Part shown: piece by piece, positions 18,001-30,000 of the stretch
How positions within the stretch are numbered: the first letter of the stretch is position 1
Layout of the letters: each line of letters opens with the position of its first letter
DNA from: Minisyncoccota bacterium
GTDB lineage: Bacteria; Patescibacteriota; Minisyncoccia; Phycocordibacterales; JAQTLZ01
Reading direction: 5' to 3'
Assembly: GCA_028714635.1 (NCBI GenBank)
Contig: JAQTLZ010000003.1
Span: 85,237-149,236, forward strand
Length of the DNA stretch: 64,000 nt
Position numbers: made by a program

Positions 18001-21000
18001 CATAAAGAACACGCTACTTCGGCTGACAGCGCTTGAAACGTAATGCGCGCCAACTACCCGTCTTAGCCTTGGTGGGCTTTTACTCCGCCAACTAGCTGGT
18101 AGGGCGAGAACCCGAAAGTGGCTTGCATGCAAGCCACAGTGGAAATGGTATCCTCGTATACTCGAAGCAACACCATCGCCGCCGGAGCGAGCAATGAGCA
18201 CCAAAGTTATCCTAGTCTTTGGAAAAGTTTAATGCAAGTTTGACTTCCCTTTTCAGACGGAATAGGATTGAAAACGGTTGGGCCCATTGTGGTGTCCCAT
18301 TCGATTCAGTTCAACAACGTTACAGCGGAGAATACTCATGTCCCGTTTGCCGAAACAACGAAAACCGGTTGCAGTCATGCCGGTAGTCTATTTTATACCG
18401 CGCGCCCCGCTCAACACGAGGAACTGGTGCAGGTTGGGCGATGTCCTTGCGCTCGCCACCCACATCATGCGCGAAGTACATGGGCACGATTTCACGCCGA
18501 CACCCACCGACCTTGTAAAACGCTTCGTCCTGTTGGTGCGGAAAAATAAAGCCCCGACAGGTGGGAAAAGAAAAAGATTCTTCCGCTACTCCCCCGATGG
18601 TAAATCGATACGGTGGCCGGAAGTCCCTCCGGGTAAATGCAGTTGGCCTGAAATCCGTGTGCGATGTGGGGTAAACACCTACATCACGGAAGAATTTGCG
18701 CATGACATCCTCGACGCCATTCTAGAGGGAATGGACGAGGTAGGACAATGGGGCAAGAAAATCTTGATGGTTGGACCCAAGAAGGATCGGGTCAAAGATG
18801 TGACAAAAAGACCTTGAGGTTTGGGTTTTCAGAAGAAGAAACGGGATCGAGAGATTCCGTTTTTTATTTATCTTCATTTCTGTCTCCAAAGAAGGAAAAA
18901 ATTCAAAACAAGGAGAATGAGGAGCGAGCCGAGTGCAAAAAGCTCGAGGCGACCAGTCTGGCGAGAACCCTCATCGATGCCGTTCCACAGAATCCAAAGG
19001 AAAAAGAGAGCATTTCCGAGAAGCGCCAGGTTTCTAAGATTTTTAAGCATACATTATCCGAGCAAGTCTCGAAGACGTGGATACTTGGAACAAATTGAGA
19101 GACCGGAGAACCAATGTTGGAGGCCAAATGCTCGTCCAGCGTTGTGATACGCAAGCACAAGAAGTCCCGTAGCATAAATGATATGGTCATCAACAATGAG
19201 TGAATGTGCGTCCGGGTGAATGATGCCAAGCGGAAGCCAATAGAGAATCATAAGAAGCGCTCCTAATTTCCCCGAGAGGCGTATCCCAATTCCAAGAATG
19301 AGAGAAACGCCGAGAAGCGTCAATCCCCACACGTTTACAAAATTTACAATCGGTAAAATTCCCGGAGTGGCGAGCCAATGATAAAACCCGACAAAAGTCT
19401 TCGCTCCGGCAAGATATCCACCGGCTGAAAAATTCGGGTCAAGGAGATGAGTAATTCCCGCGTACAAAAACATCCATCCCATCGTCACGCGGAGAAGAAA
19501 AAGGGAGAGTTTATGAAAGTGTGTCATAAGTTTATTATACCACTCGCACGCTACAAACTTATGCACAGGAGGGACCAGATTACATATCCGGAGTCTCGGC
19601 CCAGGTTTTCATAAAGTCACTGCTCCACTTCACCATCATTGGGTCGTCCTTCGGCATCTTTTTAACATTTGCCGCCATTTTAGGGTGAACTTTTTCCAGG
19701 TGCTTCATCCCATTTACCATCATCTCCTCCGGAGTTGAGCCTGTTATGGGTTCATCACACTCACCTCCCATCGCTCTGCATGTTATTGTTTTCATGGTTT
19801 TTATTATTAGCTTCTATTGCTACATTTTAGCACGTCTCTTTTTGATAAGAAGGGAGGGTTTGAGAAAGAAATGAGTAGGGGAAGGCCAATTCACTGAACC
19901 AGACCATTCACGAATTTCCGTGTTGATGCACCAAAGAATCCTGTGCCGTGGGAAAGTCCTTGCGGGATAAGAATGTCAGGTGCGTGCGCCTCTTGGAACT
20001 TCTTGAGTGCCTCTTTTGTTTTTGCCCCAAAAAAGTTCGTCTCGTGACCTAGAGAGCCGAGACCGGTCAAAGCAAGAGGAAAGCCGTGGGTGTTAAGAAA
20101 AACTTGGAGAGCTTTCACATCTGGACCAGAGAAGCCCACACGGAGAGGGCGGGTGAAGAAAGAAGCTCTAGCGGGAACAGAAGGGGCAGAAGCTGGCCCA
20201 ACAGCAGAATCGGATGAGGCTGGAGGCGGCGTTAGAGAAATTGCAGGAGCGAATTGTTGGATTCGGGCAACTGAAGCTCCTCCGCCACCAGAGTGGTGGT
20301 GAGTTGGTGAAGGGGTGGGCGTAGGCGTAGGAGGTGGCGGGGTGTATGCAGGAATAGTGACCGTGACATTGGAAACAGAATAGGTGTCAAAATCGGGATC
20401 AATGGATGAAGCAGCGTGTGTGATCGTACCGGTCAGAATATCACTGGCGAGATTATCTTGAATAGCTGTTACCGTCACTGTTTGAGGAGTGAGATAATTG
20501 GCTGACGTGAAAGTAAGCGTCGAAGAAGAAACTGTCTCGTAACTGTCTGGAGATATGGTGACCACAACATCATCGGTAGGCTCCTTATTGACCACCATGA
20601 CATTATAGGTGGCCGAGCTTCCTTTCTCTACGGTGAGGGCAGTTGGGGCAATATCTATCGCTGGCTGTTGCGCAAATTTTTGGATGCGGTTGTTAAAAGT
20701 ATCCATCACGTAGATATTTTCGGACGAATCGAGACCAACATCGGTGGGAGAAGAGAAGGCACCCTCACCACTTCCACCGCTACCGAACTTGCTTAGGTAA
20801 TTGCCGGAAGAGTCAAACTTCTGGATGCGATTATTATTTGCATCAACCACATAAATATTTCCTGTTGTTGTCGAGACAGCAATACCAAATGGGTAGTTGA
20901 ACTGACCATTGCCGGAACCGGAGACCCCAAATTGGCCAATAAAAGCCGGTGCGGGACTAAATTCTTGAACACGGCTGTTTCCTGGATCAGTTATAAATAT

Positions 21001-27000: not shown

Positions 27001-30000
27001 GTACCTGATTTGAGCGCAGTAAATGTTACTGTACCGAAAACCTTGCTAGTCGATACTCCTCCGGGATATCCAGCAGTCTTTATAACTAAGCCTGAATCCA
27101 TACTGTCGTAGCCTGGTTGCGAAAGCGGGAGCCATACGGGAGCAAAATTAAACGCCGTAGCCTTCAAAAGATCTTTCGAATAAGAAAGAACAACCTTCGA
27201 AGTATACACATTCTCCCCTGCAGGATTTACTGAAACCTGTACGGCAACTGTCTGACCAGCTTTCACATTGAACGTTGAAGGAGTAAGAGAAACATTAGCA
27301 GCTGCAGAAGCAAAAGCTGGAACAGCCACCGCAAGAACGATAAAAGAAAAGATAATTTTTTTCATATTATTTTGCCCAGTTAATGAGTAATTGATTAAAA
27401 TCCAAAATATCTACGACGCCATCGCTGTTGAAGTCTGCAGAATTATTTGTTCCCTTCTTCCCCCAATTTACGATAAGAAGATTGAAGTCGAGGATGCTGA
27501 AGGTATGAGCACCCAAAACTTTTCCTGATCCTCCGGAAGAACCGCCACCGGATGTGTGACGAGCTGGTGTAGGAGATGGAGTTGGTGTCGCTTCAGGAGT
27601 AGGCGAAGGTGTCGGCGTCGGGGTAATTTCTGGGGTTGGACTTGGTGTTACCTCAGGAGTGGGTGTGGGAGTAACTTCCGGTGTTGGAGATGGGGTGGGT
27701 TCTGGCGTCACGGACGGCGTGGGGCTTGGTGTCACTTCAGGAGTTGGCGTTGAAGCTGGAGCGGGATCGTTTAAAGTAATGGTACAAGTTTTTGTCTCAT
27801 CTTTGATGAAAGTTCCTGTACAATCTTCCGAAAAACTTTTTGTATAGTCATGGGTGTCTACGACATCGATCGTATAGCTTCCGGGATGAATTTGAAAAAG
27901 TTGTCCAGGATCCTCTTTCCCTGCTGCGTTGCCACTGGTTACAGAATCCTTTGATCTGGTCTGAAAGCTAGGAGCAGTAAGCGTACCGGAATTGTCATTA
28001 ATAACATGAGTAACAACATGAAGCTTCCCACTGCAAGGAGCGGAATTGCTAGAGTAATCGGTTACGTATGAATCCCCCGAACTATGTTCAAGAATCGCTG
28101 TTGCTACGCAACCAACAATATACTTGTCCGGAGTGGTAGAGAGAAATCTAAAATCATTTGCCCCAGAAGAAAGCGGTAGAAAGTTTGGATTAATAATAAC
28201 ATCTGATTCACTTGTGTGGAGGACGATGCGAACTCTGTACGTACTAATATCAGCAGATGCTGTCAAAAATCCTGAAACGGATATAGCAACAGGGTCGGTG
28301 CCGGCAGTGCTTGAAGTAATGAATACTCTGGGCAAGATAGTAGTTGCTGATACTGTATGGGCAAAAGCAAATATAGCAATAGCAAGAAGACCTACTGAAA
28401 TCAATTTGTAACTTTTCATAATTTCGTTTAAATATTGATAAAAGGCATTAAAAAAAGGCTCTAAAGAGCCATAAAAACAGATTCGTGTCTAACAGTACTA
28501 CTATACACTAACAAATATAAAAAGTCAACTAATTCTCCGAATGGGGAACCAGGCTGTTTTGAACACTACCCGCACGAGAAAATTATTTTTCTGTAGTACT
28601 CTTCATACTGCGCGACGATTTTTTCAGAGCAAAAGCTTGATCGGGCCCGTTCTTTTGCATTTTCGCCAAGTTTTTTCACCAAAGTTTCATCATGGGAAAG
28701 TTCCAGAAGCTTTTGTGCAAAATCATCCACCTTCCCCACTCCAAATAAATATCCTGTTTCGCTGTCTTTCATAACTTCTCCAATTCCACCAGCATCTGTT
28801 GCAAGCACCGGCTTGCCATACGACATCGTCTCAAGAATCCCCATTCCAAAACTTTCAGTCTCTGACGTGTAGATACCAATATCAGCGGCATTAATATAAT
28901 TTTCGATGTCGAGGACATTTCGTTTTATAATTATCTGGTCGCCTATGCCTAATTCCTCGACAAGAGATTGAAAGGAAGCAAAATCAGCTCCTGCAAGAAT
29001 AAAGAGTTTAATTTTCTTATTTTCTTTGACTTTGCCGAGAATCGCCAAAAGATCAGGAATTCTTTTTACTTTTCGCAGATTAGAAAGATGAATTGCTAGG
29101 AAATCTGTACTGGCCACCCCGATCTCTTTCCTCACTTCCTCGGTGCTTTTTGTTATTTTCTTTGGAGTATAGAAATTATGAATAACCTCGATGTGTTTTT
29201 TGGTATCAAGATTTTTTATCGTATCTTTTTTCAAACTTTCTGAAACTGCCGTAACTCCGCACGAACTTTCAATAGAATACTTGATAACTGGCATCACTGT
29301 TTTGTCCAGCGCGAGAAGGGTAATGTCAGTGCCGTGAAGGGTCGTGATTATGTTTGGAAAAGGAATCTTTTCCTCGTCTGCAATATCTTTCGCCAGAAGT
29401 GCCGCAGTGGCATGTGGCACGGCATAATGCACGTGTAAAATATCGAGCTTGAATTCTTTACATACATCCACAATCCTCACTGCAAGTGGGAGCGTATAAT
29501 CTGGGTATTTAAAAAGCTCGTGGCCGTTGAAATCAACTTTATGAAAAAAGATATTCGGTAATTTCCTATCGAGCGCGAAGGGCGGATCATAGCTTAAAAA
29601 ATGAACTTCGTGTCCCCTCTTTGCGAGTTCGCTTCCAAGCCCAGTCGCCACAATCCCGCTCCCGCCGACGGATGGATAGCAGACGATTCCTATTTTAAGA
29701 GACTTTGAAGTCTCCTTCTTTGAAGTAGTAAAAAATCCCATTTTAATAATTTCTCGCGGAAGAACCCAGTTGAGACAGAGTATTGGTTCGAATCGCATCG
29801 TTCACCCAAAGTATTGTTGCATATTTGACATCAATCGAGGCGCCGTAGGCTTTTGCACGGCTTTCGATCATATTCATATAATTTTTTGTTTTCATCTGAC
29901 TTTCATGGAGCGCGACAGCCTTCATCCATGTATCATACTGCGCCGAAACATCGATAATGATATCGGGTTTTTTCTCGAATCCATGGCTTGATGGATAAAA

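What the first reader, a model, noticed from the sequence alone, without database searches (positions are those of the whole stretch)
19891..28419. Shared P-x-[RH]-H-x-S-GGG linker motif before the anchoring domains of three secreted proteins
The NHL beta-propeller protein (…SPTHHHSGGGGAS…), the FN3/LamG protein (…PVARHHSSGGGSL…) and the PT-repeat dockerin protein (…[15 protein letters not shown]…) all place this motif between a Pro/Thr linker and their C-terminal anchoring domain. That domain is PG_binding_1 in the first two and dockerin-like in the third. The three proteins are otherwise unrelated, so the motif looks like a recognition or processing site (sorting protease, transpeptidase or glycosylation site) rather than descent from a common ancestor.
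Basis: seen in the sequence. Interest (0 to 1): 0.6.

Follow-up and report, generated by a model that had tools for sequence, protein, structure and literature searches.

The report
His/Arg–Ser–Gly hinge before surface anchors
Three secreted proteins of an uncultured Candidatus Pacebacteria bacterium share a short His/Arg-His-x-Ser-Gly-Gly-Gly stretch between their Pro/Thr stalk and their wall- or cohesin-binding end; it is a local version of a glycine hinge that is common in such proteins, not a demonstrated processing signal.

Summary
The motif is real. In the six-frame translation of the window, SGGG occurs three times. Each time it follows [RH]-H-x, in a signal-peptide protein, between a Pro/Thr linker and a C-terminal anchoring module (0.0007 core motifs expected). 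The NHL and fn3/LamG proteins are not unrelated at that end. They share a homologous cassette of linker, motif, spacer and PG_binding_1 (40% identity, E=7e-29), which relatives also carry behind FG-GAP and fn3/LamG passengers. The S-Gly(n)-S part is generic. Glycine runs are 8-19 times denser in the 100 residues before PG_binding_1 across 122 family members, and 10 of 14 dockerin-like relatives carry a Gly5-10 run after their PT linker. Only the [RH]-H dyad is specific to this clade. The closest ortholog of the third protein reads THHAASGG, so the dyad is kept and S-GGG is not. The motif window is not clearly better conserved than the rest of these proteins. No sortase, M23 or S8 peptidase was found among the window ORFs with a Pfam result. 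AlphaFold2 gives the motif low confidence. Best reading: a flexible hinge with a clade-specific basic/His collar of unknown role. Processing is not excluded. Interest is modest.

The parts
19891..22737 (-). P1: secreted NHL beta-propeller protein (948 aa) with a C-terminal PT linker, hinge and PG_binding_1 cassette
   Evidence: ORF. Pfam NHL E=5.5e-83 and PG_binding_1 E=3.9e-7. Signal-peptide-like N-terminus.
20302..20340 (-). P1 Pro/Thr linker (aa 800-812, [13 protein letters not shown])
20281..20301 (-). P1 motif core HHHSGGG (aa 813-819)
19894..20130 (-). P1 PG_binding_1 domain (aa 870-948)
   Evidence: Pfam. Aligns with the P2 domain.
22839..25160 (-). P2: secreted fn3 + Laminin_G_3 protein with the same type of C-terminal cassette (773 aa from GTG; NCBI start gives 755 aa, about nt 25106)
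23202..23222 (-). P2 motif core HHSSGGG (aa 647-653; R646 precedes it)
23121..23198 (-). P2 spacer directly after the Gly run (aa 655-680, LASRVTNLVAMNKTQEAKDLVEKYQN), predicted as a helix at low confidence. It carries the R-[VI]-x-x-[LF] element shared with P1, P0025, P0035 and P0089.
   Evidence: AF2 helix 20-45 of the 138-aa fragment, pLDDT <50. Sequence comparison.
22863..23060 (-). P2 PG_binding_1 domain (aa 701-766)
   Evidence: Pfam E=1.8e-12. AF2 pLDDT >90.
27367..28419 (-). P3: secreted 350-aa protein with an N-terminal prealbumin-like beta domain, a PT repeat stalk, the hinge, and a dockerin-like C-terminus
27565..27768 (-). P3 Pro/Thr(/Glu/Val) repeat stalk (aa 218-285)
27523..27561 (-). 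P3 motif core RHTSGGG (27541-27561) plus the continuing Ser/Gly hinge SSGGSG (aa 287-299)
   Evidence: The ortholog reads [13 protein letters not shown].
27370..27501 (-). P3 dockerin-like C-terminal module (aa 307-350). The second repeat [21 protein letters not shown] is intact; the first repeat is degenerate.
   Evidence: Dockerin_1 E=0.005, below the cut-off. The best PDB sequence matches are dockerins but are not significant. Relatives carry PF00404.
26688..27365 (-). Adjacent 225-aa protein: signal peptide, cohesin-like beta-sandwich, C-terminal TM helix. It is the putative membrane-anchored partner of P3's dockerin-like module.
   Evidence: The gene abuts the P3 stop. AF2 pLDDT is 54. 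Thirty of the top 31 Foldseek PDB hits are cohesins. The gene pair is conserved in sister genome L156.

Best explanation
The motif is the junction of a modular 'stalk, hinge, anchor' tail used by surface proteins of this Candidatus Pacebacteria (CPR) lineage. A passenger domain (NHL propeller, fn3/LamG, prealbumin-like) is held away from the cell by a Pro/Thr stalk. A Ser-flanked glycine run then acts as a flexible, side-chain-free hinge. A non-covalent anchor follows. In P1 and P2 the anchor is PG_binding_1, which binds the wall. In P3 it is a dockerin-like module that probably binds the cohesin-like membrane protein encoded next door. The S-Gly(n)-S hinge is a general feature of both anchor families. 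In this clade a basic/His dyad ([RH]-H; R-R in a more distant relative) sits just before it. P1 and P2 carry the dyad because they inherited one homologous C-terminal cassette that has been joined to different passengers by domain shuffling. P3 carries a similar junction on a different anchor. The dyad is probably under some constraint, for example as a charged 'collar' next to anionic wall polymers, a metal or pH-sensitive contact, or a protease determinant, but the exact heptapeptide is not. Shown: motif positions, cassette homology, hinge enrichment, ortholog variation, predicted disorder. Inferred: hinge mechanics, cohesin-dockerin pairing, any role of the dyad.
For: The motif is specific to the three stalk-plus-anchor proteins in the window. 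The P1 and P2 tails are homologous with the motif in register. Relatives P0035 and P0025 (fn3/LamG) and P0089 (FG-GAP) carry the same cassette at 41-72% identity, with RHRSGGG, RHGSTGGG and HSHSSGGG followed by x4-R-[VI]-x-x-[LF]. P0076 has RRSSGSS in the equivalent place. Gly runs occur at 6.07 per 1000 aa in the 100 aa before the first PG_binding_1, against 0.76 per 1000 aa elsewhere upstream. Runs of 5 or more Gly occur at 2.70 against 0.14 per 1000 aa. Ser is the commonest residue at -1 (37/71) and +1 (33/71), and the median distance to the domain is 52 aa. Ten of 14 dockerin-like relatives have a PT linker and a Gly5-10 run 15-35 aa before the dockerin. AF2 gives pLDDT <50 for the PT linker, the motif and the spacer, and >90 for PG_binding_1. 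The P3 ortholog (88% identical) reads THHAASGG, which keeps the dyad and loses S-GGG; that window is at the 8th percentile of conservation. The P2/P0035 motif window is at the 27th percentile. The neighbour's fold matches cohesins.
Against: A pure hinge does not explain why a rare residue (His, 1.9% of residues) is kept at -3 or -4 in all seven instances, across cassettes only 41-55% identical and across two anchor types. It is found in only 1 of 115 unrelated PT-linker proteins and in 5 of 77 hinges of the PG_binding family, 3 of which are this clade. The P2/P0025 motif window is somewhat better conserved than average (86th percentile). Only about 115 kb of DNA from this clade could be examined. 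The cohesin and dockerin assignments rest on a low-confidence model and sub-threshold Pfam scores. No experiment bears on flexibility or processing.
Confidence: 0.6

Rival explanations
1. Processing or release site. A lineage-specific protease, for example a subtilisin or a Gly-Gly endopeptidase, or a transpeptidase recognises [RH]-H-x-S|GGG. It cuts or re-links the passenger relative to its anchor, which would shed the passenger or attach it covalently.
For: The [RH]-H dyad is retained across two unrelated anchor types within one clade and is rare elsewhere. The site lies in an exposed segment predicted to be disordered. More distant relatives have dibasic residues before the Gly run (RR, KK). 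In relative L124 a Peptidase_S8 gene lies between two hinge-bearing PG_binding proteins.
Against: No sortase, M23, S8 or rhomboid gene was found among the window ORFs that have a Pfam result; the only peptidase is prepilin peptidase A24. The sister locus shows none either. S-GGG is replaced by A-SGG in the P3 ortholog. The motif windows are not clearly more conserved than their flanks. Cutting there would detach the passenger from its only anchor. There is no C-terminal TM or charged tail as in known sorting signals.
Confidence: 0.12
2. Pure common descent or linker exchange with no function for the dyad. One ancestral PT-linker/hinge junction was copied among surface-protein genes by recombination in the repetitive linker DNA, and the His residues are hitch-hikers.
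For: P1, P2, P0025, P0035 and P0089 share one cassette. PT-coding DNA is repetitive and offers homology; an 18-nt PT-coding repeat is shared by P1 and P3 at 78% (D15). The P1/P2 genes lie in a variable island that is absent from the sister genome.
Against: There is no extended DNA identity around the motif. The cassettes have diverged to 41% identity, yet the dyad survives in a disordered segment where drift should erase it. P3's anchor is unrelated to PG_binding_1.
Confidence: 0.15
3. Metal- or pH-responsive element. The His-rich junction (HHH, HH, RH) binds Zn/Ni/Cu or titrates near neutral pH, and so changes the stalk-anchor geometry or its interaction with anionic wall polymers.
For: His is conserved at -3 or -4 in all seven instances, with three consecutive His in P1. 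It can be replaced by Arg or Lys in relatives, which suggests that positive charge matters.
Against: Only one or two His in most copies, which is too few for a defined metal site. There is no conserved second ligand. This is entirely inferential.
Confidence: 0.08
4. Compositional coincidence. Low-complexity linkers rich in P, T, S and G happen to contain R/H next to a Gly run.
For: Gly runs after PT linkers are fairly common (16 of 117 PT-linker proteins).
Against: Expected core motifs in the window proteome are 0.00066 against 3 observed. [RH]H follows a PT run in only 1 of 115 unrelated proteins. There are no motifs in 319 kb of unrelated PT-linker loci.
Confidence: 0.03

Closest known systems
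Pro/Thr-rich and Gly/Ser-rich interdomain linkers of bacterial cell-surface and cellulosomal proteins (for example the linkers before dockerins)
   Same: Low-complexity segment predicted to be disordered, placed between a passenger or catalytic domain and a C-terminal anchoring module. It varies in length and sequence between orthologs.
   Different: Here the linker has two parts (PT stalk, then a Ser-flanked pure Gly run). The position is fixed, about 50 aa before PG_binding_1 or 15-35 aa before the dockerin. In this clade a conserved [RH]-H dyad sits at the junction.
Sortase LPXTG cell-wall sorting signal, and the related exosortase, rhombosortase and archaeosortase C-terminal signals (PEP-CTERM, GlyGly-CTERM, PGF-CTERM)
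   Same: A short motif near the C-terminus of secreted surface proteins, often after a Pro/Thr-rich wall-spanning region. It concerns anchoring.
   Different: Those signals are followed directly by a hydrophobic TM segment and a basic tail at the extreme C-terminus, and they need a dedicated sortase-type gene. Here the motif is followed by a 60-130 aa soluble binding domain. No such enzyme was found among the window ORFs with a Pfam result.
PG_binding_1 (PF01471) wall-binding modules, as in SleB, CwlC-type hydrolases and the Streptomyces albus Zn D-Ala-D-Ala carboxypeptidase
   Same: P1 and P2 end in a bona fide PG_binding_1 domain that is modelled with high confidence as a helical bundle.
   Different: In those enzymes the domain accompanies a catalytic hydrolase. 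Here it is the C-terminal tether of large non-enzymatic passengers (NHL, LamG, FG-GAP) and comes as a cassette with linker, hinge and spacer.
Cohesin-dockerin anchoring pairs (cellulosome-type, and the non-cellulosomal pairs of Clostridium perfringens and Archaeoglobus)
   Same: P3 ends in a duplicated D-x-N-x-D-G-x-x-D-x-x-DF-type segment. The adjacent gene encodes a beta-sandwich whose best structural matches are cohesins, plus a membrane anchor.
   Different: Sub-threshold Pfam score, a degenerate first dockerin repeat, a low-confidence cohesin model, no cellulolytic context, and a two-gene minimal system.
His-x-|-Ser/Thr cis-autoproteolytic motifs (GAIN/GPS HL|T, Nup98 HF|S, ZU5/FIIND HF|S)
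   Same: A His one residue before a Ser in six of seven copies.
   Different: Those motifs work inside a folded beta-sandwich that strains the scissile bond. Here the segment is predicted to be disordered, and the P3 ortholog lacks the H-x-S spacing. This was considered from memory only and not pursued.

Membership tests
Sortase-type (LPXTG-like) cell-wall sorting signal | Pentapeptide followed within about 10 aa by a hydrophobic TM segment and a basic tail at the extreme C-terminus | tested here: not met
   The motif is followed by 129, 120 and 57 further residues that form PG_binding_1 or dockerin-like domains. No terminal TM is present.
Sortase-type (LPXTG-like) cell-wall sorting signal | A sortase or other dedicated transpeptidase gene in the genome or neighbourhood | tested here: inconclusive
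   None was found among the window ORFs with a Pfam result or in 21 kb of the sister genome. The rest of the genome could not be searched.
PG_binding_1 (PF01471) anchoring domain, P1 and P2 | Pfam score above the gathering threshold (23 bits) | tested here: met
   P1 scores 30.6 bits and P2 scores 47.7 bits. A profile of the two tails finds 14,104 relatives.
PG_binding_1 (PF01471) anchoring domain, P1 and P2 | Compact helical-bundle fold | tested here: met
   The AF2 model of the P2 tail has three helices at pLDDT >90. No fold search was run on it.
Dockerin_1 (PF00404), P3 C-terminus | Pfam score above the gathering threshold (22.9 bits) | tested here: not met
   17.4 bits, E=0.005. Relative P0009 just reaches 23.0 bits, and several relatives are precomputed as PF00404.
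Dockerin_1 (PF00404), P3 C-terminus | Two tandem ~22-aa segments, each with an EF-hand-like Ca2+ loop (D-x-N-x-D-G-x-x-D) and an F-helix | tested here: inconclusive
   The second segment is intact ([21 protein letters not shown]). The first keeps only the helix ([13 protein letters not shown]) and lacks the loop. Relatives have both.
Cohesin, 225-aa neighbour | Nine-stranded jelly-roll beta-sandwich matching solved cohesins | tested here: inconclusive
   Thirty of the top 31 Foldseek PDB hits are cohesins (E 4e-4 to 5e-2, TM 0.43-0.57 on the target). The model has mean pLDDT 54, and there is no Pfam or PDB sequence hit.
Flexible interdomain linker or hinge | Low complexity, predicted disorder, placed between independently folding domains, poorly conserved between orthologs | tested here: met
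   pLDDT <50 over the linker, motif and spacer. The motif window is at the 8th and 27th percentile of conservation in two ortholog pairs and the 86th in a third. The Gly-run position is enriched before both anchor types.
Protease or processing recognition site | Sequence conserved above its flanks, and a cognate enzyme co-occurring | tested here: not met
   Only the [RH]-H dyad is invariant; S-GGG changes in the P3 ortholog. No cognate enzyme was found in the DNA available. Actual cleavage cannot be tested with these tools.

The most novel reading that the evidence does not exclude
The basic/His dyad plus oligo-glycine junction is a true post-translational handle of CPR surface proteins. One possibility is a cut site for a Gly-Gly or subtilisin-type protease that sheds passengers or exposes an N-terminal oligo-Gly nucleophile. 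Another is a contact or attachment point to the wall. In either case it would be shared by PG_binding_1-anchored and dockerin-anchored proteins, and the generic Gly run before both anchors across Patescibacteria would be a functional signal rather than a passive spacer.
Probability: 0.1. Interest if true: 0.6.

Novelty: new variant of a known kind. Interest (0 to 1): 0.25.

Why it matters
Patescibacteria live attached to other cells, and their surface proteins are the likely tools of that lifestyle. How those proteins are displayed is largely unknown. This analysis shows a recurring tail architecture of PT stalk, glycine hinge and non-covalent anchor. It is used with two different anchors and has been shuffled onto diverse passengers. 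One of the anchors appears to be a minimal two-gene cohesin-dockerin pair. That gives a practical rule for spotting surface-displayed proteins in CPR genomes. It also defines a small, testable oddity, the conserved [RH]-H dyad. As it stands this is a description of a linker, not a new mechanism.

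Tried and rejected
1. A degenerate DNA pattern for P-[ST]-P-x-[RH]-H-x-S-GGG was scanned over genome contigs.
2. Word-index protein searches with the short C-terminal tails returned 7 and 2 hits and did not even recover the query proteins. They were too insensitive for this question. The exhaustive profile search and the full-length P3 search did the work.
3. A metagenome scan with P3 mostly retrieved unrelated PT-repeat proteins. It served only as a negative control: 0 motifs in 319 kb.
4. I considered that the motif plus spacer is a decayed first PG_binding_1 repeat, as a MAFFT alignment with tandem-domain proteins suggested. 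I rejected this because Pfam finds no trace of PG_binding_1 in five isolated spacers even at E<=10.
5. I considered recent gene conversion between the three genes. I rejected it because codons differ and no repeat longer than 18 nt links the motif regions.
6. I looked for a processing enzyme next door. None was found among the window ORFs with a Pfam result.
7. Four literature searches for glycine hinges, surface motifs and related terms in CPR and one paper read found nothing relevant.
8. Walking the source contig with exact-protein look-ups added only a few kb, so no whole-proteome regex was possible.

Full report
**What is in the sequence**

The flagged region holds three minus-strand genes for secreted proteins.
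- P1 (19891-22737, 948 aa) has ten NHL repeats and a C-terminal PG_binding_1 domain.
- P2 (22839-25160) has fn3, Laminin_G_3 and PG_binding_1.
- P3 (27367-28419, 350 aa) has no significant Pfam hit over its full length. Its last 44 residues give a sub-threshold Dockerin_1 match (E=0.005).

The same genes lie on an NCBI MAG contig (GCA_028711105.1). NCBI names the organism Candidatus Pacebacteria, a CPR/Patescibacteria lineage.

The core [RH]-H-x-S-G-G-G lies at nt 20281-20301, 23202-23222 and 27541-27561. SGGG occurs nowhere else in any of the six frames of the 64 kb window. From the composition of 72 non-overlapping ORFs (19,311 aa), 0.00066 core motifs are expected. Codons differ between copies and no DNA repeat joins them.

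**P1 and P2 are not unrelated**

Their tails align from the PT linker to the stop codon with the motif in register (40% identity, E=7e-29). An exhaustive profile search with the two tails found 14,104 relatives. Three of the best 150 come from close relatives and carry the same cassette:
- P0035, the P2 ortholog in another Pacebacteria MAG: PRHRSGGGSSVGARVTNLIAM.
- P0025, a longer fn3/LamG protein: LRHGSTGGGSVSSRIANLLAM.
- P0089, an FG-GAP protein: PHSHSSGGGATSQRVRAFVAP.

The cassettes are 41-72% identical to one another. Beyond the motif they share an R-[VI]-x-x-[LF] element four to five residues after the Gly run. A more distant member, P0076, has RRSSGSS-VQRQIRNLL in the same place. For the PG_binding_1 proteins, then, the motif is part of one inherited C-terminal cassette that has been joined to different passengers.

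**The SGGG half is generic**

In 122 family members with at least 100 residues upstream, Gly runs of three or more occur at 6.07 per 1000 aa in the 100 residues before the first PG_binding_1. Elsewhere upstream the rate is 0.76 per 1000 aa. For runs of five or more the figures are 2.70 and 0.14. The median distance to the domain is 52 aa. Ser is the commonest residue on both sides of the run.

The dockerin-like family of P3 shows the same pattern. Ten of 14 relatives have a PT linker, then a Gly5-10 run, then a short spacer, then the dockerin. 'Stalk, glycine hinge, anchor' is therefore a common tail architecture for two unrelated anchors. A basic or His dyad before the run is rare: 5 of 77 hinges, three of them from this clade. 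Among 117 PT-linker proteins from many lineages, [RH]H follows the linker only in P3, in its ortholog, and in one unrelated protein. No motif occurs in 319 kb of unrelated PT-linker loci.

**Conservation**

- P3's ortholog in a sister genome (P0161; 80% by BLASTP; 88% over aligned columns) reads [20 protein letters not shown] where P3 reads [20 protein letters not shown]. Five of seven residues changed. The dyad stayed (R to H, H kept), but S-GGG became A-SGG. That window is at the 8th percentile of conservation for the pair.
- For P2/P0035 (67.5% identical overall) the motif window is at the 27th percentile.
- For P2/P0025 (58.2% identical overall) it is at the 86th percentile.

A strict heptapeptide recognition site is therefore unlikely. 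Even so, a His at -3 or -4 from the Gly run is present in all seven instances.

**Structure and context**

AlphaFold2 on the P2 tail gives pLDDT below 50 for the PT linker, the motif and a putative helix that starts right after the Gly run. It gives pLDDT above 90 for PG_binding_1. The spacers show no trace of a decayed PG_binding_1 repeat.

No sortase, M23, S8 or rhomboid peptidase was found among the window ORFs that have a Pfam result. The only peptidase is prepilin peptidase.

The gene abutting P3 encodes a 225-aa protein with a signal peptide, a beta-sandwich and a C-terminal TM helix. Its model is of low confidence (pLDDT 54), yet 30 of the top 31 PDB fold matches are cohesins. The pair is conserved in the sister genome. 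P3 is therefore probably tethered by a minimal cohesin-dockerin pair. P1, P2 and two small ORFs are absent from the sister genome, so they form a variable island.

**Interpretation**

The best-supported reading (confidence about 0.6) is a modular stalk-hinge-anchor tail. The Gly run is a flexible joint. The [RH]-H dyad is a clade-specific addition, inherited with the cassette in the PG_binding_1 proteins and also present in the P3 lineage.

Chance is excluded. Recent gene conversion is not supported. The retention of His in a disordered segment across cassettes only 41-55% identical, and across two anchor types, is not explained by a passive hinge. That leaves room for a charged collar, a metal or pH contact, or a protease determinant. 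I put a true processing or attachment site at about 0.1.

**Comparison and novelty**

The feature works like the PT and Gly/Ser linkers that precede dockerins and wall-binding modules in Gram-positive surface proteins. It fails the defining features of sortase-type sorting signals, because it has no terminal TM segment or basic tail. It is a lineage-specific variant of a known kind of element, with a modest unexplained residue (the dyad). Four literature searches and one paper read found no prior description.

Noticed in passing
window 26688-27365 (-): A 225-aa protein abuts the P3 stop codon. It has a signal peptide, a beta-sandwich whose best PDB fold matches are almost all cohesins (low-confidence model), and a C-terminal TM helix with a basic tail. 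It may be a minimal membrane-anchored cohesin partner for P3's dockerin-like end. The gene pair is conserved in sister genome L156 (10001-11742).
   Followed up: partly
window 19891-26611, compared with L156 11742-14572: P1, P2 and two small ORFs (25170-25751 and 25919-26611) are absent from the syntenic region of the sister Pacebacteria genome. That genome has a His_Phos_1 gene, a 185-aa ORF, a methyltransferase and DUF6496 instead. This looks like a variable surface-protein island between the cohesin-like gene and the DUF1059 gene.
   Followed up: partly
P0010-P0159 (relatives); P0173-P0277: Pure glycine runs of up to 11 residues are 8-19 times enriched just upstream of PG_binding_1. They also precede the CPR-type dockerin in 10 of 14 relatives. 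This looks like a general 'glycine hinge before the anchor' rule, and I found no description of it.
   Followed up: partly
L124 5542-6846: In a related metagenomic contig, a subtilisin gene (Inhibitor_I9 + Peptidase_S8) lies between two hinge-bearing PG_binding_1 proteins (RHGSTGGG and [18 protein letters not shown]). It is a possible lead for a processing enzyme.
   Followed up: no
window 48318-60505: A type IV pilus gene cluster: several N_methyl pilins, prepilin peptidase A24 (50859-51686), PilC (52976-54184), two T2SSE ATPases (54192-55253 and 55865-57601) and PilM (59369-60505).
   Followed up: no
window 424-8916 (also L157): A dense glycosyltransferase cluster (GT1, GT2, GT4, GT8). Interspersed with it are a PqqD-like protein, a weak ScmC-like protein and an NTP_transf_5 nucleotidyltransferase, a set of genes usually seen in peptide-maturation loci.
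   Followed up: no
window 28566-31248 (-): A GT4 glycosyltransferase and a PIG-L/LmbE-type deacetylase lie directly upstream of P3, followed by a 257-aa protein with no Pfam hit. The arrangement resembles a BshA/BshB-like pair. It is conserved in the sister genome.
   Followed up: no
window 63680-63767 (+): ARAGORN calls a tRNA-Ser with the unusual anticodon ACT, next to a normal tRNA-Ser(GCT) at 63456-63546 (-).
   Followed up: no
window 19891-22737 (P1): P1 scores above the NCBIfam cut-off for 'ScyF NHL PEP-CTERM protein' (408.7 against 350 bits) because of its NHL repeats. It ends in PG_binding_1, not a PEP-CTERM signal, so automatic naming by that model would be misleading.
   Followed up: partly
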